This document shows, in pieces, positions 43,855-57,930 of a stretch of 64,000 bases of DNA (positions are counted from its first letter, which is position 1; every line of letters begins with the position of its first letter). Below the pieces are notes generated by a model. That model saw only the letters and a program-made list of their open reading frames with translations, ran no database searches and was not told where the DNA came from. The stretch is from NCBI GenBank assembly GCA_039028615.1, contig JBCCHT010000008.1, positions 32,001 through 96,000 on the forward strand, in the 5' to 3' direction. This DNA is from Myxococcota bacterium. Lineage in GTDB: Bacteria > Myxococcota_A > Polyangia > Nannocystales > Nannocystaceae. The position numbers and the translations under genes were made by a program.

Positions 43855-46800
43855 ATGCCTTCTGTGCGCGACTCCGGTGTTCATCATTCCCAGCGGCAGC
43901 TCAGCGACGAGCTGCAGTGGCTGGGTGCGCTCGCGCGACGCGTGGCGCTCAACCGTGATGACGCCGACGACTTGGTGCAGGAGACATGGCTGGCCGCGGA
44001 GCAATCCACCGCCGAGCCCACGCGATCGAAACGAGCGTGGCTGGGCGGGGTGCTCCGCAATCGCGAACGCATGCGTCGGCGGGGTGCAGTCCGTCGGCGA
44101 CAACGTGAACAACGGGTCGCACCGGACGAGGTCGAGGCCTCGCCCGAGGTCGACGTTCACCGCCAGCAAGTGCTGACGGCCGTTCGCGAGGCGCTCGACG
44201 AGCTCGATGAAGGCGACCGGCAGCTGTTGCTGGCGCGCTACTGCGACGAACATGCAGCATCGACCTTGGCCGAGCGCCTGGGCATTCCGGCATCGACGGT
44301 TCGTTCCCGCCTGAGTCGCGCGACGGCTCGGGTGCGGCGGAGCTTGGACGAGCGCTGGGGAGGCGACCGCGGAGCATGGGCTCCCGCGGTGCTGGCCATT
44401 CCCCGTCCCGCGCCTCCGAAGAGCCCCGCCTCTCTCGGATGGAAGGCGCTGCTGGTGGCCGTCATGGGTAAGAAGATCATCGTTGGAGTCGTGGCAGTGC
44501 TCGTCGCTGCCCTGTGGTGGACGAGCTCGCGCAACGGCACGCCGACGGCGACCGCCTCGGCCACGTCCGATTCCGCGGCGGAACGCTCGGCCATCGCCGC
44601 GCGCATGCGGGACGCCCGAAACGACAACCCGCCCGACTCGAGCCCCGGCCGAGTGACGGGCCAGGTCATCGACGCGACCACCGAGCAACCCCTGGCCGGC
44701 TCGGTGATCTTGCTGGCTCCCGCCTCGGGCCCGATGGCCAAGCACCGCCACGGACTGAGCCTGGCCTCGGTGCCGCGGACCCGCACCAACGCCGACGGCG
44801 AGTTCACGATCGAAGACGTGCCCCCCGGGAGCTATCGCGTCACCGCGACCGCGCTGGGCTATCTGCCGGGACGACGCGGCCAGCTGGTGGTCCCTCCCGG
44901 AGCCGATGCCGCCACCACCGTGCTGAAGCTCAGCCCGGGCGGCAACTTGGTCGAGGGCACCATCTCGGACATCGGCGGAGGCCCGGTCGAGGGCGCCTTG
45001 GTGCGGGTGCAGAAGCAGGTCGGCGGGATGTCCCCATCCCCCACCAACCCCGCGGCGGCCTACGGCACCATGTCCGACGACGAAGGCCACTACCGGATGA
45101 CGGTCCCCGACGGCAACTGGAAGATCACCGCGGGCGGCCAGGACTACACCGAGAAGGACCGTCGCCTTCGGCTCGCCAAGGGGCCCGCACGCGCCGACTT
45201 CTCGCTCGTCCCGGGGGCCACGATCCACGGCCGGGTGCTGTCGCAGAGCACGGGACAGCCGGTCGCCAACGCGCGTGTCGGCTTCGACGTCTATGTCCGC
45301 CGCGGCAGCGGATACAGCTCCTACTCGGCCGATCCGCACGAATACGCGGTAACCGACGCCGAGGGCCGCTTCGAGCTGAGCCCGCTCGGACCCGGGGAAT
45401 ACACGCTCCAGGCCAACGCGGCCGGCCTCGCCACGTCGTCGCCCACGCTGGTGCTGGCCGCCCTCGCGGAGGAGATCACCGGGGTCGAGGTCTTGGTCGG
45501 CCCGGCCTTCGACGCCAGCGGCTTCGTCGTCGAGTCCGGCGAAGACCAGCGAGGCATCGGCGGCCTGGAGATCATGGCCATGGACTTCGACCGACGGCTC
45601 AAGCTCTTCGCCGTGAGCGAGCCCGACGGCTACTTCGAGTTCCGCGGCCTCCCGCCGGGGTCCTTCATGCTCGCGGTCTCGGGTCCCGGCGTGGTGCCGA
45701 GCCCCATGGGCAGCTCGATCGAGATCGAGGACCACGGCGTCGACGACCTGCTGGTCGAAATGGAACGAGGCCGAACGATCCGCGGCCGCGTCACGCCTCC
45801 CATCGCGGGGCGCGTACAGGTCCGCCAGCGCCAGTCGCAGGGCGGGTTCGAGATCATGATGAACGGCGCCAAGCTGACCAATGCCCGAACGGAGTTCGAC
45901 GACTCCGGTTCGTTCGTCATCGAGGGCGTGCCAACCGGCGAGTGGAAGCTCGTCGCCACGGGCGAGGACGGCAGCCAAGGGGAGCAAGAGTTCGAGCTCG
46001 ACGATGCTGATCTCGACGATGTCGTGATCTCGTTGTCGCCCCGCACCACGCTGCACGGGCACGTGCGGGACCAAGCCGATCACCCCGCCGCCGGGATGGT
46101 GGTCGAGCTGCAAAAGGGCGTGGACCCCTCGCGAGCGCCGGGCCACCTCAACCGGCCCCGTGCAGCATACACAGCCACCACGGCGGCCGACGGCTCCTTC
46201 GCCATGGTGGGGGTCGACGCGGACTCCTACGACCTCGTCGTTCGCACGGCGGCGGGCCAGCGCGGCGACATCGCCGAGGGCCCCCGCCAGATCACGACCC
46301 GCGACGGTGAGGACGTCGACGACCTCGCCCTGAGAGTCTCACTGCCGGCCGGGCGAGTGGCGGGCCACGTCCTCGGAGCCGACGGGCAGCCCGTGCCCGA
46401 CGCTTGGGTCACGCTGCGAGGCGAGAACGAGTCGACCCATGGCATCACCGATGCCGACGGCGCCTTCGAGTTCACCGAGCTCGCCGACGCCGACTACTCC
46501 GTGTACGCGCGGGGCCCCGATGCCAGCACCAAGGCTTCCGCGCAGGACGTCCGCATCGGCACCCCGGTCGAGCTGTCGCTCGAGGCGTTGGGGGAGATCC
46601 GCGGCGTCGTCACCCGCGGCGGCGAGCCGGTGCCCGAGTTCCACCTGCGTCCCATTCGGGGTCCTCGGGCCCGCAACATCTCCTCGCCAGACGGTTCCTT
46701 CGTGCTCTCTCGCGTCGAGCCGGGCACGCAGAAGCTCACCATCTCCACCGAGGACGGTTCGGCCTACGCCGAGGTCGAAGTCGAGCCGGGGGCCGAGGTC

Positions 46801-47472
46801 GAAGTCGAGCTCGCGATCGAGCCGTGGGGTTCGGTGGAGGGCACCGTCGTCTCGGCTACCGACGGCACGCCACTGGCCGGGCTCGCCTTCAGCGTGTGGA
46901 GCGACGGCGGTGAAAAGAAACGCAGCTCTCGCATGTTGTCGACGCTGATGGGAGGCGGTGGCTCCACCGTCACCGACGACGAGGGTCACTTCTCCATCGA
47001 GGGGCTGGGCGCAGGCGAGGTCACCCTTCGCTTCAAGCAGGGCAGCCGCTTCACCCGCCGTGCATCCATGGGACTGCACGAGTTCACCCTCGACGCGGGG
47101 AGCCACCGGGACCTGGGCACGATCACGCTGCTACCGAGCGTGGACCTGGAGTCGGGCGACGCGGGGCGCCTCGGGCTATCGGCGACCACCAAGCGACCCG
47201 AGACCGCGGGCACCGATGACGAGCCGAAATCCGCGGTGTGGATCTCGTGGATCGATCCCGCGGGCCCCGCCGCCACGGCCGGCCTGCAGGTGGGCGACCG
47301 CGTGCTGTCCGTCGATGGCATCGACGAGTCGAAGGTGGGTACGGAGACGCTCAGGCAGATGCTGACGGCCGGACGCATCAGGGCCGCCCAGCGCTACGTC
47401 CTACGCGTCGAACGAGACGGCGGACCCACCACGATCGCCATCGAGGCCGCCGCCGAGACGAAGAAGAAGTAG
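43855..47472 (+). CDS. ECF sigma factor fused to TM, multiple carboxypeptidase-regulatory-like (Ig/transthyretin-like) repeats and a PDZ domain
   Basis: DADDLVQETW, RAWL, LAERLGIPASTVRSRLSRA; TM near aa 205-225; repeated G.V.....P..GA.V...T..DG.F....PG.Y; GPAATAGLQVGDRVLSVDG. Confidence 0.88.
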   Translation: MPSVRDSGVHHSQRQLSDELQWLGALARRVALNRDDADDLVQETWLAAEQSTAEPTRSKRAWLGGVLRNRERMRRRGAVRRRQREQRVAPDEVEASPEVDVHRQQVLTAVREALDELDEGDRQLLLARYCDEHAASTLAERLGIPASTVRSRLSRATARVRRSLDERWGGDRGAWAPAVLAIPRPAPPKSPASLGWKALLVAVMGKKIIVGVVAVLVAALWWTSSRNGTPTATASATSDSAAERSAIAARMRDARNDNPPDSSPGRVTGQVIDATTEQPLAGSVILLAPASGPMAKHRHGLSLASVPRTRTNADGEFTIEDVPPGSYRVTATALGYLPGRRGQLVVPPGADAATTVLKLSPGGNLVEGTISDIGGGPVEGALVRVQKQVGGMSPSPTNPAAAYGTMSDDEGHYRMTVPDGNWKITAGGQDYTEKDRRLRLAKGPARADFSLVPGATIHGRVLSQSTGQPVANARVGFDVYVRRGSGYSSYSADPHEYAVTDAEGRFELSPLGPGEYTLQANAAGLATSSPTLVLAALAEEITGVEVLVGPAFDASGFVVESGEDQRGIGGLEIMAMDFDRRLKLFAVSEPDGYFEFRGLPPGSFMLAVSGPGVVPSPMGSSIEIEDHGVDDLLVEMERGRTIRGRVTPPIAGRVQVRQRQSQGGFEIMMNGAKLTNARTEFDDSGSFVIEGVPTGEWKLVATGEDGSQGEQEFELDDADLDDVVISLSPRTTLHGHVRDQADHPAAGMVVELQKGVDPSRAPGHLNRPRAAYTATTAADGSFAMVGVDADSYDLVVRTAAGQRGDIAEGPRQITTRDGEDVDDLALRVSLPAGRVAGHVLGADGQPVPDAWVTLRGENESTHGITDADGAFEFTELADADYSVYARGPDASTKASAQDVRIGTPVELSLEALGEIRGVVTRGGEPVPEFHLRPIRGPRARNISSPDGSFVLSRVEPGTQKLTISTEDGSAYAEVEVEPGAEVEVELAIEPWGSVEGTVVSATDGTPLAGLAFSVWSDGGEKKRSSRMLSTLMGGGGSTVTDDEGHFSIEGLGAGEVTLRFKQGSRFTRRASMGLHEFTLDAGSHRDLGTITLLPSVDLESGDAGRLGLSATTKRPETAGTDDEPKSAVWISWIDPAGPAATAGLQVGDRVLSVDGIDESKVGTETLRQMLTAGRIRAAQRYVLRVERDGGPTTIAIEAAAETKKK

Positions 47473-47546: not shown

Positions 47547-49724
47547 TCAGTTCGTCACGATGTTGCCGGGCGCTCCGTCGCCACCGTCGTAGCCGTTGAA
47601 GAAGGTGTCGGAGACACCACCGCTGACGTCCAGGGTCGCTCCAGCCACGTCGGTCGCGGGCGAGTTCAGCAGGATGGTGCCTCCGGCTCCACCGCCACCC
47701 AGGCCGCCTGAGCAGGTCTCCGAGGGGCCGCCGTCGCCACCGCTGGCATCGATGACCCCGGTCACGACGATCGAGACGGTCGCATCGATGGCAACGGCTC
47801 CACCACCACCGCCGCCGCCCGTACCTTCGTCATCCGCGGGAGTGAGGCCACCACCGGGAGGAGAGTCTTTCTCGACTCCACCCCCGCCTCCGCCGCCACC
47901 ACCGATGAGCGGGGGAAGGCTCATGTGCGCTTCACCTCCGGCGCCTCCCATGGCGCCCGCGTTGCCTTCGCCCGGCTGGCCCGGGACGCTATGGCCACCG
48001 CCTCCGCCGCCCGCCACGGCATCACCCGTGCTCGTCACGGTCGAGGACACTCCGCCGCCCGCCGGAGCCATGCCCGGACCGTCGCCCGGCGAGCCGTCTT
48101 CGGTGCCCGAGCCGCCGAAGCCCGCCCCGTCTCCACCGTCGAACCCACCGGGGCCACCGATGCCTCCCGCGCCCGCGGTATCGCAGGTGGTGACCATCGT
48201 GGTGCCCGTTTGCCCGTCGCCACCCGAGACATCCAACGTGCCGGAGATGTCCACCATGCCATCGACCAGGATCGTCAACGGATTGGAACCGGTGACCACC
48301 AGCGTCCCGGACAGCTCGAGCCCGGTCAGCGCCCAGATCGACAGCGCGGGGTTCCAGCTGACCTGCGGCACGCCGTCGAGCTCTCCCGTGTCCGTATCGA
48401 AGGTGTGGGACAGGTCCAGCACCAGGTCGGGCGCGGGCTGGCACAGGTTGCTGCAGAAATCGAACCCGATGTCGTTGCCGTCGTCGCAGGCTTCCATCGC
48501 CGTCGGGTTGAGCGTGCCGTCGCCGCACAACGCCGCCGTACAGTCGGCGTCGCAGTCCTGAGTCTCGCCCGCCTCGTCGCACTCCTCCAACGCGGTCATG
48601 TTCACGATGCCGTCGCCGCAATCCGCGGGCGTGCAGTCGATGTCGCAGATCGCCGACTCTCCACCATCGTCGCAGAGCTCCAGCGCGGTCGCGTTGATCT
48701 GACCGTCGCCGCAGACCGCCGTCGAGCAGTCGATGTCGCAGCCCGCCGACTCACCGCCGTCGTCGCACTGCTCCAGAGCGGTCGCGTTCACCACCCCGTC
48801 GCCGCATACGGCCGGCGTGCAGTCGATGTCGCATGCCGCCGATTCGCCCGCGTCGTCGCAGACCTCCGACGCGGTCACGTTCACGATCCCATCGCCGCAC
48901 TGCGCCGTCGTGCAGTTGGCGTTGCACGTCGCCGACTCGCCCACGTCGTCGCAGTCCTCCATCGCGGTGACGTTCACCACCCCATCGCCGCACATCGCCG
49001 ACGTGCAGTCGTCGTTGCATGCCGCCGACCGGCCACCGTCGTCGCAGACCTCCATCGCCGCCCGGTTCACGATGCCGTCGCCGCACATCGCCGCCGTGCA
49101 ATCGTCGTTGCACGCCGCCGACTCACCGCCGTCGTCGCAAGCCTCCATCGCGGTGGCATTGACCACCCCGTCCCCGCACATCGCCGTCGTGCAGTCGTCG
49201 TTGCAGGTCGCCGACTCACCACCGTCGTCGCAGACCTCCATCGCGGTCGCGTTCACCATCCCGTCCCCGCACATCGCCGTCGTGCAGTCGTCGTTGCAGG
49301 TCTCCGACTCGCCTTCGTCGTCGCAATCTTCCGAGGCGGTCACGTTCACCACCCCGTCCCCGCACATCGCCGTCGTGCAGTCGTCATTGCAGGTCTCCGA
49401 CTCGCCCGCGTCGTCACAGTCCTCGGCGTCTTCGACCACCCCGTTGCCGCACTCGGCGATGGTGTCCGCGGTGCTGCTTCCCATGGGGTCGTCGGTGGTT
49501 CCCGCCGTGGTGCCCGACGTCGTTCCGTCGGCGCTCCCCGCCGTGGTGTCGGCGGACCCCTCCGTATCCGACGTCGGATCCGGCGTCACCGAGCCCGTGT
49601 CCGTGCCCGTCGTCGAATCGCCCTCGCTGTCGGTCGTGACCGTGGGGACATCGTCTGCGGGGCAGCCGATCAACAGGCTCGCCGCGCTCGTGACCAACAA
49701 GATGTTTCCAATCCGAAATGCCAA
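47547..49724 (-). CDS. Surface lipoprotein with Myxococcus-type Cys-rich (DUF4215-like) repeats and Gly-rich C-terminal domain
   Basis: Lipobox LIGC, Thr/Asp linker, 11 CGDG...E.CDD...C..DC repeats; TTG start with GAGGAAGG RBS. Confidence 0.88.
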   Translation of the reverse strand: MAFRIGNILLVTSAASLLIGCPADDVPTVTTDSEGDSTTGTDTGSVTPDPTSDTEGSADTTAGSADGTTSGTTAGTTDDPMGSSTADTIAECGNGVVEDAEDCDDAGESETCNDDCTTAMCGDGVVNVTASEDCDDEGESETCNDDCTTAMCGDGMVNATAMEVCDDGGESATCNDDCTTAMCGDGVVNATAMEACDDGGESAACNDDCTAAMCGDGIVNRAAMEVCDDGGRSAACNDDCTSAMCGDGVVNVTAMEDCDDVGESATCNANCTTAQCGDGIVNVTASEVCDDAGESAACDIDCTPAVCGDGVVNATALEQCDDGGESAGCDIDCSTAVCGDGQINATALELCDDGGESAICDIDCTPADCGDGIVNMTALEECDEAGETQDCDADCTAALCGDGTLNPTAMEACDDGNDIGFDFCSNLCQPAPDLVLDLSHTFDTDTGELDGVPQVSWNPALSIWALTGLELSGTLVVTGSNPLTILVDGMVDISGTLDVSGGDGQTGTTMVTTCDTAGAGGIGGPGGFDGGDGAGFGGSGTEDGSPGDGPGMAPAGGGVSSTVTSTGDAVAGGGGGGHSVPGQPGEGNAGAMGGAGGEAHMSLPPLIGGGGGGGGGVEKDSPPGGGLTPADDEGTGGGGGGGAVAIDATVSIVVTGVIDASGGDGGPSETCSGGLGGGGAGGTILLNSPATDVAGATLDVSGGVSDTFFNGYDGGDGAPGNIVTN
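48433..49452 (-). repeat. Tandem 93-bp (31-aa) coding repeat, 11 units
   Basis: ccgtccccgcacatcgccgtcgtgcagtcg recurs at 49168, 49261 and 49354. Confidence 0.9.
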
Positions 49725-50125
49725 GTGTTTTCCCTTCCTCGTCTTACGTTCCCACCGGTGGGACACGCTCCATGGTGCGGTCCCGCCGACGAACCCGAGC
49801 CGATCGTATCGAGACGAGCGCAGCGACGACATCGGGCACTCCACTAGCCCGAGCATTGGTGTGCCCTACGACGACATCCAGCTCGAGCGCCGATGAAATT
49901 GGTAACGCGATCGCACGACGCCGAGAACACGACGCTCCCACACGATTTCACCCCACGACGGGTCGCGAACTCGACGCGAGCGATTGAACTTCGTTCGCGA
50001 ATCGAGCCCACTCGAAAGCACTTGAAAGATCGAACGAGACTGAAAGAGCACGCGTCCAATCGAGAGGCTGGTGCCGTTTTGGAGCCTTGTGGGCGACTGA
50101 CCGTTCGCGTAATTCAGAGAGTCCG

Positions 50126-50359
50126 ATGCAAGAGATCCTCTCCTACAAGGTCACCTGGCGAGCGGCCGACGACACCGGCATGCTCCACCTCGCGATGAAA
50201 GACGGCACCGCGGTCTCGATCCCGGTCGACTCGCCCTCCGAAATGTCGCTGTTGATCGATCTCGTTCGCAACGAGAGCCCGGTGTTCTACAACGCCAAGC
50301 ACGGCCTACTCTGCACGGGTATGGAAGCGGTGGGCGAAGGGGAAAAGGCCGCGGAGTAA
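50126..50359 (+). CDS. Small hypothetical protein (77 aa)
   Basis: MQEILSYKVTW...DLVRNESPVFY...TGMEAVGEGE; coding-like codon use. Confidence 0.65.
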   Translation: MQEILSYKVTWRAADDTGMLHLAMKDGTAVSIPVDSPSEMSLLIDLVRNESPVFYNAKHGLLCTGMEAVGEGEKAAE

Positions 50360-50430
50360 CGCGGGGATCTCTGTGCTTCGAAAGGTCGACGGCGCGACGG
50401 ATCACTCCGCCACGCCGCTCGACTCGTGAC

Positions 50431-52356
50431 TCATGCGTCGCTGCGACTCGACGGCACGGCCTGTTCTTCGGCTCGCTCGGCGAGGTACCGAGCCCGCATC
50501 GTCGCGTACTGTCGCTTGCCGTTGTGCGTCCGCGGGATGGTGCCGCGCTTGACCATGTGAACCCGACTGGGGCGTAGGCCCAGCCGCGCCTTCACCTTGG
50601 CGCCGATGGCCTGTGCGAGCGTCGTCCACTCGCGCCGCGGGGCTCGAGCCTCGACGAACAAGTGCAGGTGCTCCCCCGCCTTGCCGCCCTCGTCGATGCC
50701 CAGCGCCATCGAGCTGGCGACCCCGTCGACCGAGTCGACGATTTCCTCGACCTCCTTGGGCGCGAGGTTGCGACCGGCCACGATGATGACCTCCTTGGTC
50801 CGCCCCACGATGAACAGCACCCCGTCCTCGTCGACGTAGCCCACGTCACCCGTGCGGATGAAGCCATCGGAGGTGGTGAGCCGATCGGTGAGCTCGGCGT
50901 CGCGGTAGTAGCCCGCCGTCTGCGAGGGACTACGCAGGCAGACCTCGCCTCGCTCCCCAGCCGGCATCGAGCGATCGCCCTGTCGAATGTCGACGTCGAA
51001 GTCGGTCAGCGGCGCACCCACGCCCACGAAGCCGTCGTCGTCGACCACCAGCCCGTCACGAGACAACGGCCAGAATGCCGCGCCCACGCAGATCTCGGCG
51101 AGCCCGTAGCCGGGCCGCAGCACGTTGCGCAAGCCATGGGCCGTTTCGAAGGCCTCGATCGTGCTGGCACGAACCGGCTCGGCCGCGACCAAGGCAAAAC
51201 GCAGGCTGGTCAGATCGTACTTGCCGACGTCACCCCCGAAGCGCAGCGCAAAGCGGTACGCGAAGTCGGGCGCCGCGGTCATGGTGCCGCGATGCTCGGT
51301 GATGGCCTCGAACCACGCCTGCGGGCGCAACGAGACCGGCAACAGCACCACGCGTGCACCCACGTACATCGGACACAGCGTCATCGTGATGAGCCCCATG
51401 TCGTGATAGACGGGCAGCCAGCTGACGAACACGTCGTCGGGGTTGAACTGGGCGGGCGGGATCATCTGGCGGATGTTCGCCATCAAGCCCCGATGCGTGA
51501 GCATGACTCCCTTGGAGTCTCCCGTGGTCCCCGAGGTGTATTGCAGCATCGCCACCGCATCGGGCTCGGGGACGGGCAGGGGCTCCAGCTCGTGGCCCGC
51601 CTCCGCATCGGTGAACACGTCGGCGAGCGCCACCAGATCGACCTCGGTGCCCTCGAGCGCGGCGTCCAGATCGCGGCAGGCCGCGTCGTCCAGCCGCCCT
51701 CGGGTGATGACCATCGTCGCCTGGCAGTCGCGCACGATCGAGGCGATGCGCTCGGGCCCGGACGCGTGGAAGATCGGGGCCACGATCGCGCCGAGGCGCG
51801 TGATCCCGTGGAACAGCGGCAAGAACTCGGCGCAGTTGGGCATCATCAAGACGACGACATCCCCCCCGCTGACCCCCGCCCGCCGTAGGGCCCGGGCCAC
51901 CCGCTCCACGAAGATCGCCAGCTCGGCGTAGGTGCAGACCTCGTCGTCGAAGCGAAAGGCCTCGCGGTCCGGGGTGAGCACGGCCCGACGCAGCACCATC
52001 TCCGCGAGCGTGTCGACTCCGGCGAGCGGATCGGTGCCGAGCCACGCGGTCACCTCGGCTTGTCGCCCGCTCTCGGCTGGGGCGGTCGCAGCCGCGTCCA
52101 CGGCCGGCGCGGGCGCTTCGACGGGCACTGGCCCCACCAGCGCTCGATAGAACTGCTCGACCGTCTCGACCTCGGCGAGGCTGTTGGTGTCGAGCTCTCG
52201 CCCCAGCGCAATCTCTACGCGCTGGAGCACCTGCACGACGTCGATCGATTGCACGCCCAGCTCATCGAGGCTCTGGCCCGCCTCGATCGTCTCCGCGGGA
52301 AGCAAGAGTTCCTCGGCCAAGATCCCGGCAAAGCTCGGAAAATCCATCGTCTTCAT
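50431..52356 (-). CDS. Acyl carrier protein fused N-terminally to a fatty acyl-AMP ligase-like adenylation domain
   Basis: LDELGVQSIDVV (ACP Ser); LQYTSGTTGDSKG, SWLPVYHDMGLI, APDFAY, AEPV, YGLAE, RTGD, IPRT..GK. Confidence 0.88.
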   Translation of the reverse strand: MKTMDFPSFAGILAEELLLPAETIEAGQSLDELGVQSIDVVQVLQRVEIALGRELDTNSLAEVETVEQFYRALVGPVPVEAPAPAVDAAATAPAESGRQAEVTAWLGTDPLAGVDTLAEMVLRRAVLTPDREAFRFDDEVCTYAELAIFVERVARALRRAGVSGGDVVVLMMPNCAEFLPLFHGITRLGAIVAPIFHASGPERIASIVRDCQATMVITRGRLDDAACRDLDAALEGTEVDLVALADVFTDAEAGHELEPLPVPEPDAVAMLQYTSGTTGDSKGVMLTHRGLMANIRQMIPPAQFNPDDVFVSWLPVYHDMGLITMTLCPMYVGARVVLLPVSLRPQAWFEAITEHRGTMTAAPDFAYRFALRFGGDVGKYDLTSLRFALVAAEPVRASTIEAFETAHGLRNVLRPGYGLAEICVGAAFWPLSRDGLVVDDDGFVGVGAPLTDFDVDIRQGDRSMPAGERGEVCLRSPSQTAGYYRDAELTDRLTTSDGFIRTGDVGYVDEDGVLFIVGRTKEVIIVAGRNLAPKEVEEIVDSVDGVASSMALGIDEGGKAGEHLHLFVEARAPRREWTTLAQAIGAKVKARLGLRPSRVHMVKRGTIPRTHNGKRQYATMRARYLAERAEEQAVPSSRSDA

Positions 52357-52377
52357 GAGTTGTCCCCCCGTGGTCTT

Positions 52378-54816
52378 CTAGAGATTGGCCAATACGCTGG
52401 CCGAGTACGTGTCATCCAACATGACGAAGGCAGAGTTCGCGGCCGGCCGTGCGCCCAGCTTCTTTTTGATGAGCTCGGCGGTATACGCCAGGTTCAGCGA
52501 GGTCGCCCCGTGGGCTCGAGCTCGCTCGACCATGTGCAGCAAGCAGACCTTGTAGATCGAGTGCGAGGTGACATGGGCCTGGTCGAAGCCGACGAGCAGC
52601 GCCGTACAACGCACGCCCCGCTCGTGGGAGATGAACACACCGACCGGCCGATGGAGATCGGCCTGCCCCGGCTCGTAGAGCCGCACCACGTCGAACTCGG
52701 GGTTGGCGAACATCGCCTCGAACACCCCGAGCGGCAGGGGCATCACGTTGAGGCGATGGCCTCGCGCGTGCACCCGTCGATAGAGCTGATAGCAGGCCTC
52801 GATGATCTTCGGGTCGTCGGTCGTCGAGTCGTCGACGCGCAGGCCCTCCATGGCGGGCAGGAACTCCCGCCGCACGTTGTAGCGATAGCGCTGCCCCAAG
52901 GTCGCGAGGAAGCCGTCACGATCGGCCCAGGCCATCTCGTCGACCATCATCATGTCGGGCATCGAGGTCTCCACGAAGCCCAGGTCGAGCAAGATCTTGC
53001 GGAGCTGTTCGTCCTCGCCCCGCGGAAACTCGCGCAGCAAGACCTGCGTGGCGCCGACCTCCCGCTTGACGCGCTGCATGTCGTCGACCAGCAGGGCCAG
53101 CGCCTCCGACCAATCCGGGTGCGAACGATCGAGCTGCAGGTGCGGCCCGAGGCTCATGGGGTTGCCCAGCACCACCGCGGGCGAGACCAGGAAATCCGGG
53201 TCGCGCTGCCGAATGGCCTCGACCTTCTCGGAGATCTCGGCCGAGGACAGCATGTCCGCCTTGACCCGCGTGACCCCGTAGAAGGTCGCCAGCACCGGGT
53301 GCCCCTGCGCATCCTCGACCAGCACGTAGTGCATGTCGGCCTGGCAGGTATCGGCGGGCGCATCGACGAAGGGTCCCTCGAGGTCCCTGAGCACCGAGTG
53401 GCTCATCGGGCCCTTGTCGGCGAACAGCGCGTCCCACTTTTCGGCCGGAATCTCTGCGATCGAGCCGTAGTGCCGCAGGTTCAGCGAGGGCTCGTTGGAC
53501 TCGACCACCTTCAGGCGCGAGCGCTCGAAGTTCAGCTCGGCGATCGAAGGGTCGCGGAAGGTCCGGGCCAGGTCGTGCGGCGTGACGCCCTCTTCGCGGA
53601 AGACGTCGAACAGGTGGTCCCGCATGCGATCGAGCAGGTCGTCGATCTCTTGGAAGCTCAGCCCGCGATGCACGTGGAAGCGCAGCCCGCCCTGGTTCAT
53701 GGGAACGGCGGGAAACGAGCCTTGGTTGACGTAGAAGCCGTCGGCCAGCAGCCGCTCCGAAGCGGCGTAGACCAGGCGCGGCAGCCCGGTCGGCACGAAG
53801 AACAGCGGCGTGTCGTTGGAGACCAGCTGGGGCAGGCCCCGCTGCTCGATCCCCTCGCGGGCATGCGCGATGCGCTGCTTCAGGTCGATCTGCAGGGGCA
53901 CGATCTCGGGCGACAGGTGCAGCCGCGCCGAGGCCAGGGCCGCGCCGAGCATGGGCGGCTGAATGGGCCCCGAGAAGATCAGCGGCCCGCCGCAGGTCCG
54001 CACCCGGCGGGCGAGTTCCTCGGTGGGAAAGGCCAGCGCTCCCCCGGCCGCTGCGAACGACTTGTTGAGCGAGACGGCCAGCACCATCTGCTCGGGCATG
54101 GTGATCTTGGACGCCACCCAGCCGCAGCCGTTGCGACCCGCCCAGCCGAAGCCGTGGGCATCGTCGACGTAGGACCACAGCTGGTCATACTGCTCGTGCA
54201 GGGCCGCCAGCTCGTCGAGCGGCGCCCCGTCTCCGTGCATCGAGTAGACGCCGTCGGCGAAGTACCAGACCTTGTCGTGGTCGGCCTTGAGGCGCTTGAT
54301 CTCTCGCTCGAGCTGGTCCATGCGGTTGTGCCGGATCATCACGATCGGCACGCCGCGCGCCTTGAGCAGCTGCACTGCGATCTGCAGGCTGTTGTGCACC
54401 TGGTGGTCGAGCACCACCGCGTCGTTGTCGGAGACCAAGACCGGCACCGCCGACATGTGCCCGAGCGTCGTCGACGGGGTCACCACCACGGGGCGACCGA
54501 CCATCTTGCCGACCTCGGACTCGAGCTGTTCGTACATGCCGAGCGACAGGTAGACGCGCGACGAAGCGAACTGGGTACCATAGCGGCGGAGCCCGTCTTC
54601 GACCCCCGCCATGATGGCGGGATGACGCTCGAGGCTCAGGTAGCTCGCGGAGCCATAGTTGAGGACACGCCGACCCGAAATGTGGATCGTACGACCATCG
54701 ATCTGTTCATCACGCGCGGAGAGATGGGCGATCCCGCGCCCTACTCCATCGGTGATGATCTGGTCGATGACATCGTACATGCCAGCGGAACCAGTCTGAT
54801 GTCTCACGATGTCCAC
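52378..54816 (-). CDS. Alpha-oxoamine synthase (BioF/SPT-like, PLP) fused to a GNAT/FemAB-like acyltransferase domain
   Basis: SYLSL, SSR, VHNSL, HN, DGVYSMHG, DDAHGFG, SLNKSF (PLP Lys), FSGP; C-terminal FLATL..RYRYNVRRE. Start GTG 54816 or 54807. Confidence 0.87.
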   Translation of the reverse strand: MDIVRHQTGSAGMYDVIDQIITDGVGRGIAHLSARDEQIDGRTIHISGRRVLNYGSASYLSLERHPAIMAGVEDGLRRYGTQFASSRVYLSLGMYEQLESEVGKMVGRPVVVTPSTTLGHMSAVPVLVSDNDAVVLDHQVHNSLQIAVQLLKARGVPIVMIRHNRMDQLEREIKRLKADHDKVWYFADGVYSMHGDGAPLDELAALHEQYDQLWSYVDDAHGFGWAGRNGCGWVASKITMPEQMVLAVSLNKSFAAAGGALAFPTEELARRVRTCGGPLIFSGPIQPPMLGAALASARLHLSPEIVPLQIDLKQRIAHAREGIEQRGLPQLVSNDTPLFFVPTGLPRLVYAASERLLADGFYVNQGSFPAVPMNQGGLRFHVHRGLSFQEIDDLLDRMRDHLFDVFREEGVTPHDLARTFRDPSIAELNFERSRLKVVESNEPSLNLRHYGSIAEIPAEKWDALFADKGPMSHSVLRDLEGPFVDAPADTCQADMHYVLVEDAQGHPVLATFYGVTRVKADMLSSAEISEKVEAIRQRDPDFLVSPAVVLGNPMSLGPHLQLDRSHPDWSEALALLVDDMQRVKREVGATQVLLREFPRGEDEQLRKILLDLGFVETSMPDMMMVDEMAWADRDGFLATLGQRYRYNVRREFLPAMEGLRVDDSTTDDPKIIEACYQLYRRVHARGHRLNVMPLPLGVFEAMFANPEFDVVRLYEPGQADLHRPVGVFISHERGVRCTALLVGFDQAHVTSHSIYKVCLLHMVERARAHGATSLNLAYTAELIKKKLGARPAANSAFVMLDDTYSASVLANL

Positions 54817-55222
54817 TCCCCCGAGTCACACCCCCCAGTGCCCCCGTCGAGCGGACACCGCAGAAGATTTCTGCAGTGACCGATCACCATCGTGGGGGGA
54901 GTTCTTGGATTCTTCGATTCTCTTCAGTCATCCCAATTTTTTTTCGCCGGCACCATCCATTCACCTCATACGAGGCCGAAAACGGCCTCCCATGGCGAAT
55001 TTCAGCGTTCACGAGGACGAATGCAGAGGACTGCGGATTTATACAATTTGCTCATCACAATCTGCCAGTTTCGCAGGCGCCGTCGTGGCACGATTCATGT
55101 CTGTTCACTACCGCATCGCACAATAGACGCGATGCGATCACATCGAAAAACGGCGACGCAGACCCGGTAGAAAATCGAGCAAGACCACTCGCGAGCTCGT
55201 CCTCGAAGGCGGCGGCTCCCAT

Positions 55223-55274
55223 GAAAAAGAGGCCGGGTAACGAAGCCTCGGCTTCGTCACACGGCCCCCTTTTC
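55223..55274 (-). terminator. Intrinsic terminator downstream of the M49 peptidase gene
   Basis: Long GC stem (GGCCG..ACGAAGC/GCTTCGT..CGGCC) followed by a U-tract on the minus strand. Confidence 0.8.
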
Positions 55275-55287
55275 CGAGCAGGTCGGC

Positions 55288-57090
55288 TCAGCGAGGTCCG
55301 GTCTCGCCCGCCACCGGGTACACGGGGCGGATGTCGACCGGAATGCCCTCGAGCTTCCCGAGCGCCTTCTCCATGGCCGGAGACATCCCGCCGAACTCGG
55401 CCAGGAACTGCTCGGCCTTGCCCTTGTTGCCCTCGTGCTGGATCATCACCAGATCGTGCACGAGCGTGCCGATGTTGGCCTCGAGTTTGTCCATGTCGAT
55501 GGTGAACACGCCCTTGGCCTCGTCGAAGCTGGCGCCTCCGTCCTTCAGGTAGCGATTGATCTGCACCGCCGCGCCTTGGCCGTGGGCCTCGGCCACCCCG
55601 AAGCGAACGCTGCGGAAGAGCCCGGCGAAGTAACTGACCAGGAGCTTCTCGCGGAAGTCCTTGGGCAGCTCGCCCTTCTCGATCATGAACAGGATGTTGT
55701 ACGCGCCCATGACGTCGGCCTTGCACTCCTCGAGCGCGGTATAGGCCGGTCCCAGGGCCATGCGGACCTCGACCTTCTTGCCGTCGACGTCGGTGAAGGC
55801 GGGGCCGAGGCTGTGGGACAGCTCGTGGAAGAGCACTTGGTTGAAGAAGGCGTCGCCCGAGAGCCGGTCGTGCAACGAGGCCTCGAGGACCTTCTCACCG
55901 ATCGGCTTCATGATGCGCTCGAACTTGGTCTCGATGAGGTTGCGCAGCAGGACCTTCTTGGCGCCCTTCTCCTTGCGCACGCGCTCGTCGTTGGGGAGGT
56001 TGAACGCGATGGTCTGCACCGACTTGCGGGAGTCGCCCGAGGTGTAGACCAGGTCCACCACGCGAATCGGGCTCTCGGCCCCGCGCTTGGTCTTGACCGC
56101 GTCGTCGATGGGCAGGTGGTCCTCCATCTCCGGGAGGTAGGCCTTGTACTTGGCCAGAGCCTTCGAAGCCTCGGGGTCGCTGACGGTGACGAAGGCTTCG
56201 AAGCTGGCCTTGAGCCCCTTCAGCTCGTCCTCGTAGGTCTCGTAGGGCCCGATGGTGATCTCGACGCGGCTGTCGAGATCCATCCAGTCCTTGTCGCTCT
56301 GGTAGTAGTCGTCGCTGAGGAAGGCGTCGGCGCGCGAGCGCAGGAAGGTGGAGAGCGACTCGTTGGTGGTGGTCGCGGCCGCCTCGCGCAGCTTCTCCGC
56401 CGCGGGCTTCAGCCACTCGGCGTAGACCTCCCGGTAGGGCTTGGCCACCAGCCCGTTGTCGCCCATCTCGATCACGGTGAAGAGGCTGTTGAAGGCCTCC
56501 GCGTCGTCCGGGTGAGCGTCGACCCACGCGTCGAAGCGATCGGCGGTGAGCTCCTCGGGGTAAAAGCCCGCGCCCTTGGGCCAGGGTTTGTCGATGGCGA
56601 AGGGCTTGCGGTGCTCCTGGCGATCCCAGGGCCCCCGCATGATGCGGAAGTAGGCGTACTTGGCCTTGCCCACCGGGTCGGTCGCCTTGGACAGCTCGGC
56701 CTCGAGCGCAGGGTTGCCCGCCCAGGCCTGGCGCTCGTAGATGGGGTCGAGCAGCTTGGCCGCCTCGATGAGGATCTCGAGGGTCTTGCGCTCGGACTCC
56801 GGCAACTTGGAGGTGTCGACGCCCAGCTTCGCGATGGCGAACGCATCGATCTTGGCTTGCAGCTCGGCTGCCTCGTCGCCGCCCGCGTCGGGCTCGGCAT
56901 CCGGCTTGCCCTTGCCATCCGGCTTGCCCTTCGCGTCCGGCTTGCCCTTGCCGTCGGCCTTGCCCCCCGCCTTCGCGCCCCCCTTGGTCGTCTTCCCGTC
57001 GGCTGCTCCACCGCCGCAGGCGAGCGCGAGCGACAACGACAACATGGCCAACGAACGAACGAGGGGCGACAGCAGTGGGCGAGAGGACAT
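55288..57090 (-). CDS. Dipeptidyl peptidase III (M49)-like zinc metallopeptidase lipoprotein
   Basis: Lipobox ALAC; GPYETYED, AFNLPNDE, HELSH, LEECKAD, FG..EAHG. Confidence 0.9.
   Translation of the reverse strand: MSSRPLLSPLVRSLAMLSLSLALACGGGAADGKTTKGGAKAGGKADGKGKPDAKGKPDGKGKPDAEPDAGGDEAAELQAKIDAFAIAKLGVDTSKLPESERKTLEILIEAAKLLDPIYERQAWAGNPALEAELSKATDPVGKAKYAYFRIMRGPWDRQEHRKPFAIDKPWPKGAGFYPEELTADRFDAWVDAHPDDAEAFNSLFTVIEMGDNGLVAKPYREVYAEWLKPAAEKLREAAATTTNESLSTFLRSRADAFLSDDYYQSDKDWMDLDSRVEITIGPYETYEDELKGLKASFEAFVTVSDPEASKALAKYKAYLPEMEDHLPIDDAVKTKRGAESPIRVVDLVYTSGDSRKSVQTIAFNLPNDERVRKEKGAKKVLLRNLIETKFERIMKPIGEKVLEASLHDRLSGDAFFNQVLFHELSHSLGPAFTDVDGKKVEVRMALGPAYTALEECKADVMGAYNILFMIEKGELPKDFREKLLVSYFAGLFRSVRFGVAEAHGQGAAVQINRYLKDGGASFDEAKGVFTIDMDKLEANIGTLVHDLVMIQHEGNKGKAEQFLAEFGGMSPAMEKALGKLEGIPVDIRPVYPVAGETGPR
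56898..56964 (-). repeat. 18-bp coding tandem repeat (KGKPD[AG])
   Basis: tccggcttgccctt at 56900, 56918 and 56936. Confidence 0.8.
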
Positions 57091-57195: not shown

Positions 57196-57930
57196 CTAGG
57201 CTTCGACGTAGCGAGTGGGGTCGGCGACCCCGGCTTCCTCGAAGCCCTTGCGGCGCAGCTGACAGCTATCGCAACGCCCGCAGGCCAGCGGCCTGTGATC
57301 GGCGTCCGGCACGGGGTCGTAGCAGCTGACGGTATCTCCGTAGTTCACGCCCAGCTCCGTTCCCCGCTTCACGATGCCGGCCTTGGTCAGCTCGAGCAGC
57401 GGCGTGCGAATGCGCAGCGCGTCACCCTGGCCCTGCACCCCCACGCGAGTCGCGAGGTTCGCCATGCGGGCATAAGCGTCGATGAAGTCGGGCCGACAGT
57501 CGGGATAGCCGGAGTAGTCGAGCGCGTTGACACCGATCCAGATGTCGCGCGCCCCGAGGGACTCGGCCCACGCCAGCGCGTAGGAGAGGAACAAGGTGTT
57601 GCGCGCGGGGACGTAGGTCACCGGGATCTCGGACTCGTCTTCGACGTCGCGATCCTTGGGCACGGCCAGCTCGCTGCCCTCGACCAGGGCCGTGGCCGAA
57701 GCGACCAGCCGACCCAAGTGCGACAGATCGACGACCTCGTGGCTCGTCGCGCCCAGGGCCTGGGCCTGCCGCGCCGCGCACCCCAGCTCGATGGCGTGCC
57801 GCTGCCCGTAGCGAAAGCTCAGCGCGTGAACATCGTGTCCGGCCTCGCGGGCGATGGCCATCACGGTCACCGAATCGAGCCCACCGCTCAATAGAACCAC
57901 GGCCGGTCCGGCCGTACTCGAATTCTTCAT
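57196..57930 (-). CDS. queC: 7-cyano-7-deazaguanine synthase
   Basis: [39 protein letters not shown]. Confidence 0.96.

What the first reader, a model, noticed from the sequence alone, without database searches (positions are those of the whole stretch)
50431..54816. Two-gene, four-domain module (oxoamine synthase-GNAT plus ACP-FAAL): candidate minimal ceramide-like lipid or aminoketone signal pathway
Seen: two co-oriented genes 21 nt apart, insulated upstream by a terminator and an AT-richer promoter region. One fuses a PLP alpha-oxoamine synthase to a GNAT/Fem-like domain; the other fuses an ACP to a fatty acyl-AMP ligase. Known: FAALs load fatty acids onto ACPs; the oxoamine synthase family (BioF, serine palmitoyltransferase, CqsA/LqsA) condenses acyl thioesters with amino acids; the bacterial ceramide synthase is a GNAT-family enzyme that N-acylates 3-ketosphinganine. 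Inference: the four domains would suffice for fatty acid -> acyl-ACP -> alpha-aminoketone -> N-acylated product. No other biotin genes lie nearby, which argues against a BioF role.
Basis: partly seen in the sequence, partly recalled or inferred. Interest (0 to 1): 0.8.

Follow-up and report, generated by a model that had tools for sequence, protein, structure and literature searches.

The report
Aminoketone synthase cassette, probable signal maker
Two adjacent genes in this myxobacterium encode four enzyme parts that also occur together in other bacteria and likely join a fatty acid to an amino acid and then cap the amine, probably making an undescribed small signal molecule rather than the ceramide first proposed.

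Summary
The two genes are real and belong together. Gene 1 fuses a PLP alpha-oxoamine synthase (AOS) to a Fem-type tandem GNAT. Gene 2 fuses an ACP to a FAAL-lineage ligase that lacks the FAAL insertion. This ligase subfamily occurs in 3 of 401 class genomes, each time directly behind the AOS-GNAT; one Ca. Kentron protein carries all four domains in one chain. BioF is excluded: the tree rejects it and the genome has its own bioF-like gene. Ceramide is unlikely: the AOS lies outside serine palmitoyltransferases (AU p 0.0004), next to PRK07505/Alb29, and the GNAT shows no similarity to the bCerS ortholog YghO but folds like aminoacyl-tRNA transferases (FemX, Sbb17). Across relatives the commonest neighbour is a sensor kinase (48 of 79 loci), often with DUF7793; here no kinase is near. 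Best reading: a cassette making an N-substituted long-chain aminoketone, probably a signal; no chemistry is shown. Bold reading: aminoacylation then ring closure to a lipid pyrazinone. Closest precedents: Cqs/Lqs, AasR-AcpR-Spt-bCerS, mycobacterial BioF2. This scan noted related AOS-kinase pairs and one AOS-GNAT lipid cluster in other genomes.

The parts
52378..54816 (-). Gene 1: AOS-GNAT fusion (812 aa as listed; likely start 54807, 809 aa)
   Evidence: model pLDDT 84
53614..54735 (-). PLP alpha-oxoamine synthase domain (residues about 28-401); H141, D218/H221, K252, R379 kept
   Evidence: tree
52381..53493 (-). Tandem-GNAT, Fem-fold domain (residues 442-812); invariant Y755 and K784, basic helix R645/R649
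50431..52356 (-). Gene 2: ACP-acyl-AMP ligase fusion (641 aa)
52138..52326 (-). ACP domain (residues 11-73), phosphopantetheine Ser37 in GVQSIDV
50467..52041 (-). FAAL-lineage adenylation domain without the FAAL-specific insertion
   Evidence: criteria from PMC8460268
54817..55214 (.). AT-richer upstream region (55.5% GC), presumed promoter; no sigma-70 match
55215..55290 (-). Terminator-like hairpin closing the upstream peptidase M49 gene
   Evidence: z -5.4
50355..50435 (-). Hairpin after gene 2, between it and a convergent 77-aa ORF
   Evidence: z -3.4 on the minus strand, -0.8 on the plus strand

Best explanation
The two genes form a small, patchily distributed cassette that likely makes an N-substituted long-chain alpha-aminoketone, probably used as a signal or specialised metabolite rather than as a membrane ceramide. 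Steps: (1) the ligase adenylates a fatty acid and loads it on its own ACP (domains shown; reaction inferred; acyl-CoA output not excluded because the FAAL insertion is missing); (2) the PLP domain condenses the acyl thioester with an amino acid, losing CO2 (catalytic residues shown; substrates unknown); (3) the Fem-fold GNAT caps the new amine, most likely with an amino acid from aminoacyl-tRNA (about 55%), otherwise with an acyl group from ACP or CoA (about 35%); (4) the product would be read by a two-component kinase, as suggested by relatives; the receptor in this genome is not identified. Odds by layer: four domains act in one pathway 0.85; product is an N-modified acyl aminoketone 0.7; signal role 0.5.
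For: Coupling: the ligase subfamily is in 3 of 401 class genomes, from 3 genera, each time directly downstream of AOS-GNAT; four more protein pairs share a longest-contig length across two searches (P0004/P0021, P0007/P0024, P0008/P0023, P0011/P0038; one of them is the same contig as L225); a second, canonical FAAL(-ACP) follows AOS-GNAT in L004, L009, L066, L226. Fusions: P0145 (Ca. Kentron) = ligase-ACP-ACP-AOS-GNAT; P0032/P0039/P0047 = the same ligase subfamily fused to a sister AOS; P0243 = acyl-CoA-binding domain-AOS-GNAT. Amine capping: sister GNATs follow a FAAL-ACP-class III aminotransferase (L236) and a class III aminotransferase (L244). Fem fold: FemX Z 22.8 (rmsd 4.8, 304 aligned), Sbb17 Z 22.1 (3.0, 271), FemA 21.6, against NMT 17.8; Lys784 in 61 of 61, Arg645 in 54 of 61; CoA motif [RQ]xxGx[GA] in only 4 of 61. 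Signal context: histidine kinase within 3 genes in 48 of 79 AOS-GNAT loci and 24 of 50 AOS-only loci; kinase genes 55 of 457 near against 12 of 464 farther away; DUF7793 in 36 of 79, 0 of 464 farther genes, in two different gene orders.
Against: No chemistry or expression data. No kinase gene was detected in this window, and only 3 of 15 class-relative loci have one nearby; the kinase link is strongest in Bacteroidota (31 of 42), which are kin and not independent. DUF7793 does not track AOS-GNAT in this class: 81 of 401 genomes carry it, including same-genus genomes without the fusion. The aromatic residue before the catalytic Lys of Fem enzymes is Glu in 53 of 61 (Ile here), which weakens the tRNA-donor reading; the Lys equivalence rests on motif and secondary structure, not a residue-level superposition. 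In 12 of 34 ligase relatives the ACP serine is replaced, so the ligase can apparently work without its own ACP. Most AOS-GNAT genes have no ligase neighbour.
Confidence: 0.5

Rival explanations
1. Minimal ceramide-like lipid pathway: the AOS acts like serine palmitoyltransferase and the GNAT N-acylates the product with a second fatty acyl chain, giving a structural oxo-ceramide analogue.
For: Same logic as AasR-AcpR-Spt-bCerS (PMC9386255, PMC11324152 passages). This genome has no SPT-clade gene and no YghO homologue, so the slot is free. Ser86 sits at the position where SPT has Ser (PMC11906848 passage). A fatty acid hydroxylase or desaturase gene neighbours L004 and L074. N-myristoyltransferase shares the fold (Z 17.8).
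Against: AOS scores 84-140 bits on three SPT models with cut-offs 500-670; grouping with SPTs is rejected (p-AU 0.0004). The GNAT profile scores the bCerS ortholog YghO at -3.2 bits (one sequence tested). G403 has a true SPT (730 bits) besides two AOS-GNAT genes. No reductase in the cassette. Kinases, not lipid genes, are the usual neighbours.
Confidence: 0.22
2. Specialised metabolite without a signalling role (antibiotic or enzyme inhibitor, as in alaremycin or dehydrophos), with tailoring genes varying by locus.
For: AOS plus N-acetyltransferase builds alaremycin (PMC9356726 passages); Fem-type GNATs build dehydrophos and BD-12 (PMC12945691 passages); nearest solved AOS is the natural-product enzyme Alb29; patchy distribution; varied tailoring neighbours such as flavin oxidoreductase, aromatic amino acid hydroxylase, methyltransferase.
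Against: No exporter or resistance gene in the cassette; recurrent kinases across several phyla are easier to explain by a signal.
Confidence: 0.2
3. The kinases only regulate expression of the enzyme, or the AOS-GNAT protein acts as a metabolite-binding partner of DUF7793 and the kinase, and the product is incidental.
For: Divergent kinase-regulator operons beside target genes are common (general knowledge); the Bacteroidota kinases are soluble.
Against: Catalytic residues are invariant; sensor type changes with enzyme architecture (though not significant after phylogeny).
Confidence: 0.06
4. Biotin synthesis (BioF) or threonine catabolism (KBL).
For: Second-best NCBIfam hit is bioF, 169 bits.
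Against: Cut-off is 426; grouping with BioF rejected (p-AU 1e-28); the genome has a bioF-like gene beside a bioD-like gene on C18 and a KBL (64% to E. coli) on C12.
Confidence: 0.02

Closest known systems
CqsA/CqsS, LqsA/LqsS, JqsA alpha-hydroxyketone signalling
   Same: AOS-family synthase using an acyl thioester, encoded beside a histidine kinase; AOS-kinase adjacency was also reported for CPR genomes (PMC7567580 passages).
   Different: 81 bits on the CqsA-type model against a cut-off of 428; extra Fem-type GNAT; partner kinases of the fused form are mostly soluble (51 of 54) and often come with DUF7793; dedicated ACP-ligase; no kinase at this locus.
Rhodobacterial ceramide pathway AasR-AcpR-Spt-bCerS-CerR
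   Same: Acyl-AMP ligase, dedicated ACP, AOS and a GNAT-type amine transferase; ACP motif similar to AcpR; ligase 29% identical to E. coli AasR.
   Different: AOS outside the SPT clade, GNAT not detectably related to YghO/bCerS, no CerR, two fusion genes instead of five genes, ligase lacks the insertion.
Mycobacterial BioF2 (Rv0032)-AcpA-FadD34 type clusters
   Same: Same four domain types; the GNAT half matches the Atlas BioF2 cluster at TM 0.83 over 356 residues; a ligase-ACP-GNAT-AOS cluster of that order is in G150 (L227). BioF2 does not complement bioF and is of unknown function (PMC12910592 passage); Rv0032/33 and Rv0035 names.
   Different: Domain order reversed (GNAT-AOS) and, in L227, the AOS is SPT-like (440 bits), so the fusion arose independently. 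The mycobacterial sequence itself was not compared.
PRK07505 subfamily and Alb29
   Same: Best family model (233 bits) and best solved structures (E 1e-37); sister clade with 100/99 support.
   Different: Below the 342-bit cut-off, about 30% identity; rhizobial members examined (3 loci) have no fused GNAT and no ligase.
Fem-type aminoacyl-tRNA transferases (FemX, Sbb17/Sba18, DhpH-C, Orf11)
   Same: Tandem GNAT fold, basic helix, conserved late Lys; DhpH-C is likewise the C-terminal domain of a larger enzyme (PMC12945691 passages; that DhpH's other domain is PLP-dependent is recalled).
   Different: 12-15% identity; the Phe before the Lys is not kept; fused to a C-C bond-forming AOS.
DPO / AI-3 pyrazinone autoinducers
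   Same: Recalled: an aminoketone is N-aminoacylated and cyclises, and DPO is read by a cytoplasmic PAS receptor. Only the Tdh link was seen in print here.
   Different: There the aminoketone comes from threonine dehydrogenase and no dedicated AOS-Fem fusion or fatty-acid loader is involved; the primary papers were not held.

Membership tests
alpha-oxoamine synthase superfamily | Fold-type I PLP domain with His, Asp-x-x-His, Schiff-base Lys and C-terminal Arg | tested here: met
   H141, D218/H221, K252, R379 align with E. coli BioF, KBL, Spt; TM to target about 0.8
Serine palmitoyltransferase | Score above an SPT model cut-off | tested here: not met
   139.5/640, 132.1/500, 84.5/670
Serine palmitoyltransferase | Branches with SPTs | tested here: not met
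   36-row tree; p-AU 0.0004; only 3 SPT rows, LG+G4
Serine palmitoyltransferase | Makes 3-ketosphinganine from Ser | not testable with these tools
   needs assay
BioF | Model cut-off, tree position, biotin gene context | tested here: not met
   169/426; p-AU 1e-28; bioF-bioD-like pair on C18
CqsA/LqsA synthases | Score above NF005526 cut-off | tested here: not met
   80.9/428; no CqsA sequence was in the tree
CqsA/LqsA systems | Cognate sensor kinase encoded next to the synthase | tested here: not met
   none in the window; met in 48 of 79 relatives' loci
PRK07505 | Score above 342 bits | tested here: not met
   232.7; sister clade
Bacterial ceramide synthase (bCerS) | Sequence homology to CC_1154/YghO | tested here: not met
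   61-sequence profile scores YghO -3.2 bits with filters off; single reference, no profile-profile test
Bacterial ceramide synthase (bCerS) | Same fold | tested here: inconclusive
   no bCerS chain is listed in the fold searches; a shared tandem-GNAT fold is not excluded
Fem-type aminoacyl-tRNA transferases | Tandem GNAT fold | tested here: met
   Z 22.8, 22.1, 21.6, 20.6 to FemX, Sbb17, FemA, FemX-Wv
Fem-type aminoacyl-tRNA transferases | Basic tRNA-binding helix and catalytic Lys (FemX K305, DhpH-C K329) | tested here: inconclusive
   K784 61/61, R645 54/61, R/K649 60/61; Phe before Lys replaced by Glu 53/61; equivalence inferred; criteria
Fem-type aminoacyl-tRNA transferases | Uses aminoacyl-tRNA | not testable with these tools
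   needs RNase-sensitive assay
FAAL | FAAL-specific insertion | tested here: not met
   31 residues between motifs against 50-57 in six FAALs
FAAL | FAAL-specific helix | tested here: inconclusive
   3 residues shorter than in E. coli FAAL
FAAL | Bulky W224, M231, F279 blocking the CoA pocket | tested here: met
   all three kept (criteria); best PDB hits are FAALs
ACP | Phosphopantetheine Ser motif | tested here: met
   PF00550 30.7 bits over 20.8; Ser37; two PPTase-like genes in the genome by motif search
BioF2-type clusters | N-terminal GNAT, C-terminal SPT-like AOS | tested here: not met
   order reversed and AOS of another clade

The most novel reading that the evidence does not exclude
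This AOS clade is a widespread, undescribed family of signal synthases. The AOS-only form would make an aminoketone read by membrane kinases. The Fem-GNAT fusion would add an amino acid from tRNA so that the product closes to a pyrazinone (DPO/AI-3-like), read by soluble PAS kinases with DUF7793. The ACP-ligase gene here would set a long acyl tail, giving a lipid pyrazinone signal in myxobacteria, with related enzymes in Bacteroidota and apparently some algae.
Probability: 0.22. Interest if true: 0.88.

Novelty: new variant of a known kind. Interest (0 to 1): 0.6.

Why it matters
This locus is the most convenient entry point: two soluble proteins supply substrate loading, condensation and capping, so the product can be found by heterologous expression. 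A product would assign a function to the AOS-GNAT fusion, test whether Bacteroidota and myxobacteria have a Cqs-like or pyrazinone-type signalling system, give DUF7793 a first lead, and inform the unexplained BioF2-type clusters that share the GNAT domain. It also offers a natural FAAL-lineage ligase without the FAAL insertion for testing CoA rejection.

Tried and rejected
Sequence search of the GNAT half against PDB found nothing; the profile gave only two insignificant hits and NCBIfam nothing consistent. Complex prediction of GNAT with ACP gave no verdict. Run search listed no RNA holder. Unlinked DUF7793-kinase-receiver operon on C39 as cognate receptor: not supported, DUF7793 is common in the class regardless of the fusion; in family f1 by my count 12 of 18 fusion-positive and 26 of 53 other genomes carry it (the class total of 81 includes unpublished G337 and G367, no other claim rests on them). 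Soluble versus membrane kinase contrast (51 of 54 against 2 of 27) rests on only 2-3 independent pairs and is not significant (11 truncated AOS-only loci dropped; helix counts by a crude hydropathy window). Search of 301 genomes from the phylum of G401 found no BioF2-like GNAT; FemAB family search in 5 genomes found none, so no profile-profile comparison with FemX was made. No CqsA or Alb29 sequence could be placed in the tree. Paper searches for this fusion or for DUF7793/PRK07505 listed nothing on it; I saw listings only, and subscription journals are missing. The primary bCerS paper was not listed; DPO and AI-3 papers were not held. No supplements were read. The simple terminator scan missed the hairpins because of loop limits.


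Full report
Observation. Two minus-strand ORFs lie at 54816-52378 (812 aa) and 52356-50431 (641 aa), 21 nt apart, with GC3 near 0.89. A start at GTG 54807 fits a ribosome-binding box and the homologue N-termini better (inference). Pfam gives Aminotran_1_2 plus Acetyltransf_6 for gene 1 and PP-binding plus AMP-binding for gene 2. The upstream gap is 55.5% GC against 68.3%. Hairpins flank the pair (z -5.4 and -3.4); the consensus scan found no promoter. The nearest homologues are from Myxococcota, one named Nannocystaceae.

The PLP domain. It keeps the catalytic His, Asp/His, Lys and Arg. It passes no NCBIfam cut-off: PRK07505 233/342, BioF 169/426, SPT 140/640, KBL 133/460, CqsA-type 81/428. 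The nearest solved structure is Alb29. In a 36-row tree (chosen from 215 domains) its clade joins the ACP-ligase-AOS fusions (100/99) and then rhizobial PRK07505 proteins (100/99), apart from SPT, KBL and BioF. Forcing it with SPT or BioF is rejected (p-AU 0.0004 and 1e-28). CqsA and Alb29 were not in the tree. The genome has a bioF-like gene beside a bioD-like gene and a KBL elsewhere, and no SPT or YghO match.

The GNAT half. A model from 61 sequences (pLDDT 94.7) is a tandem GNAT closest to aminoacyl-tRNA transferases: FemX Z 22.8, Sbb17 22.1, FemA 21.6; a tandem acetyltransferase (18.1) and NMT (17.8) follow. Lys784 and Tyr755 are invariant, a basic helix is kept, and the CoA-binding motif is present in 4 of 61. 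These fit the Fem features described in PMC12945691 (passages), but the Phe before the Lys is mostly Glu. E. coli YghO, the bCerS ortholog according to PMC9386255 (passages), scores -3.2 bits on the profile. The Atlas links the domain to the BioF2 cluster (TM 0.83). The donor is therefore open; aminoacyl-tRNA is somewhat favoured, and acyl-ACP could use the same basic patch (general knowledge).

The ligase. Best solved relatives are FAALs. The three bulky pocket residues named in PMC8460268 (passages) are kept, but the insertion is about 20 residues short in all 13 subfamily members aligned and the helix is shortened. It is a FAAL-lineage ligase, not a canonical FAAL. Ser37 is intact here and in 22 of 34 relatives, including the 20 closest rows.

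Are the genes coupled? Yes. The GNAT profile hits 28 of 401 class genomes; the ligase profile hits 3 of 401 at E 1e-150 (3 candidates scored per genome), all directly behind AOS-GNAT. None of the 5 same-genus genomes has the ligase. Matching contig lengths suggest further pairs. Four other loci use a canonical FAAL in the same position. P0145 has all four domain types in one chain, P0032/P0039/P0047 fuse this ligase type to a sister AOS, and P0243 adds an acyl-CoA-binding domain. The loader is optional: 0 of 42 named Bacteroidota loci have it next door.

Family context. With my own gene caller and HMMs built from Pfam-annotated neighbours, after dropping 4 duplicates and 10 other-type loci, a histidine kinase lies within 3 genes in 48 of 79 AOS-GNAT loci and 24 of 50 AOS-only loci that have genes on both sides; DUF7793 in 36 of 79 and 0 of 50; a ligase in 7 of 79, one of them an unrelated acetyl-CoA synthetase. 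Kinases also appear beside members from Pseudomonadota, Actinomycetota, Cyanobacteriota and Chlorobiota, in small numbers. The nearest kinase is soluble for 51 of 54 fused and 2 of 27 unfused members, but that is only 2-3 independent contrasts. Against a signal role at this locus: no kinase in the window, few in class relatives, and DUF7793 is common without the fusion.

Mechanism. Shown: domains, catalytic residues, linkage, fusions, neighbours. Inferred: fatty acid to acyl-ACP, condensation with an amino acid to an alpha-aminoketone, capping of the amine. Free aminoketones are unstable (general knowledge), which makes a fused capping domain sensible. If the cap is an amino acid, its free amine could close on the ketone to give a pyrazinone, as recalled for DPO and AI-3 (papers not held); this is the bold reading.

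Comparison. The logic matches AasR-AcpR-Spt-bCerS and alaremycin AlmA/AlmB, the context matches Cqs/Lqs, and the domain set matches BioF2-type clusters in reverse order. It passes none of these membership tests. NCBI already names the architecture, but my paper searches (listings, then passages of 12 papers, no full texts or supplements) showed no study of it. Earlier notes of this scan describe related AOS-kinase pairs and one AOS-GNAT lipid cluster; they are unchecked and not counted as support, and my signal reading predates them.

Verdict. A real, coupled, two-gene cassette from a large uncharacterised family; new variant of known aminoketone chemistry; interest 0.6 because the product is unknown but directly testable.

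Noticed in passing
L022, L029, L050, L076 and others (36 of 79 loci): Bacteroidota AOS-GNAT genes sit beside a DUF7793 - soluble PAS histidine kinase - response regulator module, either divergently upstream or downstream in the same direction.
   Followed up: yes
L068, L173, L185, L195, L204 and others: AOS-only members lie next to kinases with 2-9 predicted membrane helices (some MASE7), whereas fused members lie next to soluble kinases.
   Followed up: partly
P0145: 1429-aa Ca. Kentron protein with ligase (partial), two ACPs, AOS and GNAT in one chain.
   Followed up: partly
P0243, P0255, P0275: AOS-GNAT proteins with N-terminal extensions, one with an acyl-CoA-binding domain; they look eukaryotic (impression from sequence, origin not checked).
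   Followed up: no
P0041, P0044, P0046, P0049, P0052, P0055, P0057-59, P0065, P0067, P0071: A subclade of the ACP-ligase has Pro or Ala in place of the ACP serine (12 of 34), so a dead carrier domain is retained.
   Followed up: no
L227 (G150:C224): Ligase - ACP - GNAT-AOS cluster with an SPT-like AOS, the BioF2-type order.
   Followed up: partly
L236 (G319:C310): FAAL-ACP-class III aminotransferase protein followed by two sister Fem-type GNATs.
   Followed up: partly
G000:C39:106125-108130: Unlinked DUF7793 - soluble kinase - receiver operon in this genome; not specific to fusion carriers.
   Followed up: yes
G000: Only three AOS genes were found (KBL, BioF-like, this one); no SPT-clade gene and no YghO homologue with these queries.
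   Followed up: partly
L225:4507-5349; L103:9677-10942; L235:3626-9034: Variant neighbours: an aromatic amino acid hydroxylase upstream; a flavin oxidoreductase downstream; an AOS-GNAT apparently fused behind a Ser/Thr kinase-like region in a 1803-aa frame.
   Followed up: no
window 50126-50359 (+): 77-aa ORF convergent on gene 2, no Pfam match.
   Followed up: no
window 43855-47472 (+) and 47547-49856 (-): ECF sigma factor fused to carboxypeptidase-regulatory repeats and PDZ; Cys-rich DUF4215 repeat protein.
   Followed up: no
window 57196-57930 (-): QueC-like gene (motif recalled) upstream of the peptidase M49 gene.
   Followed up: no
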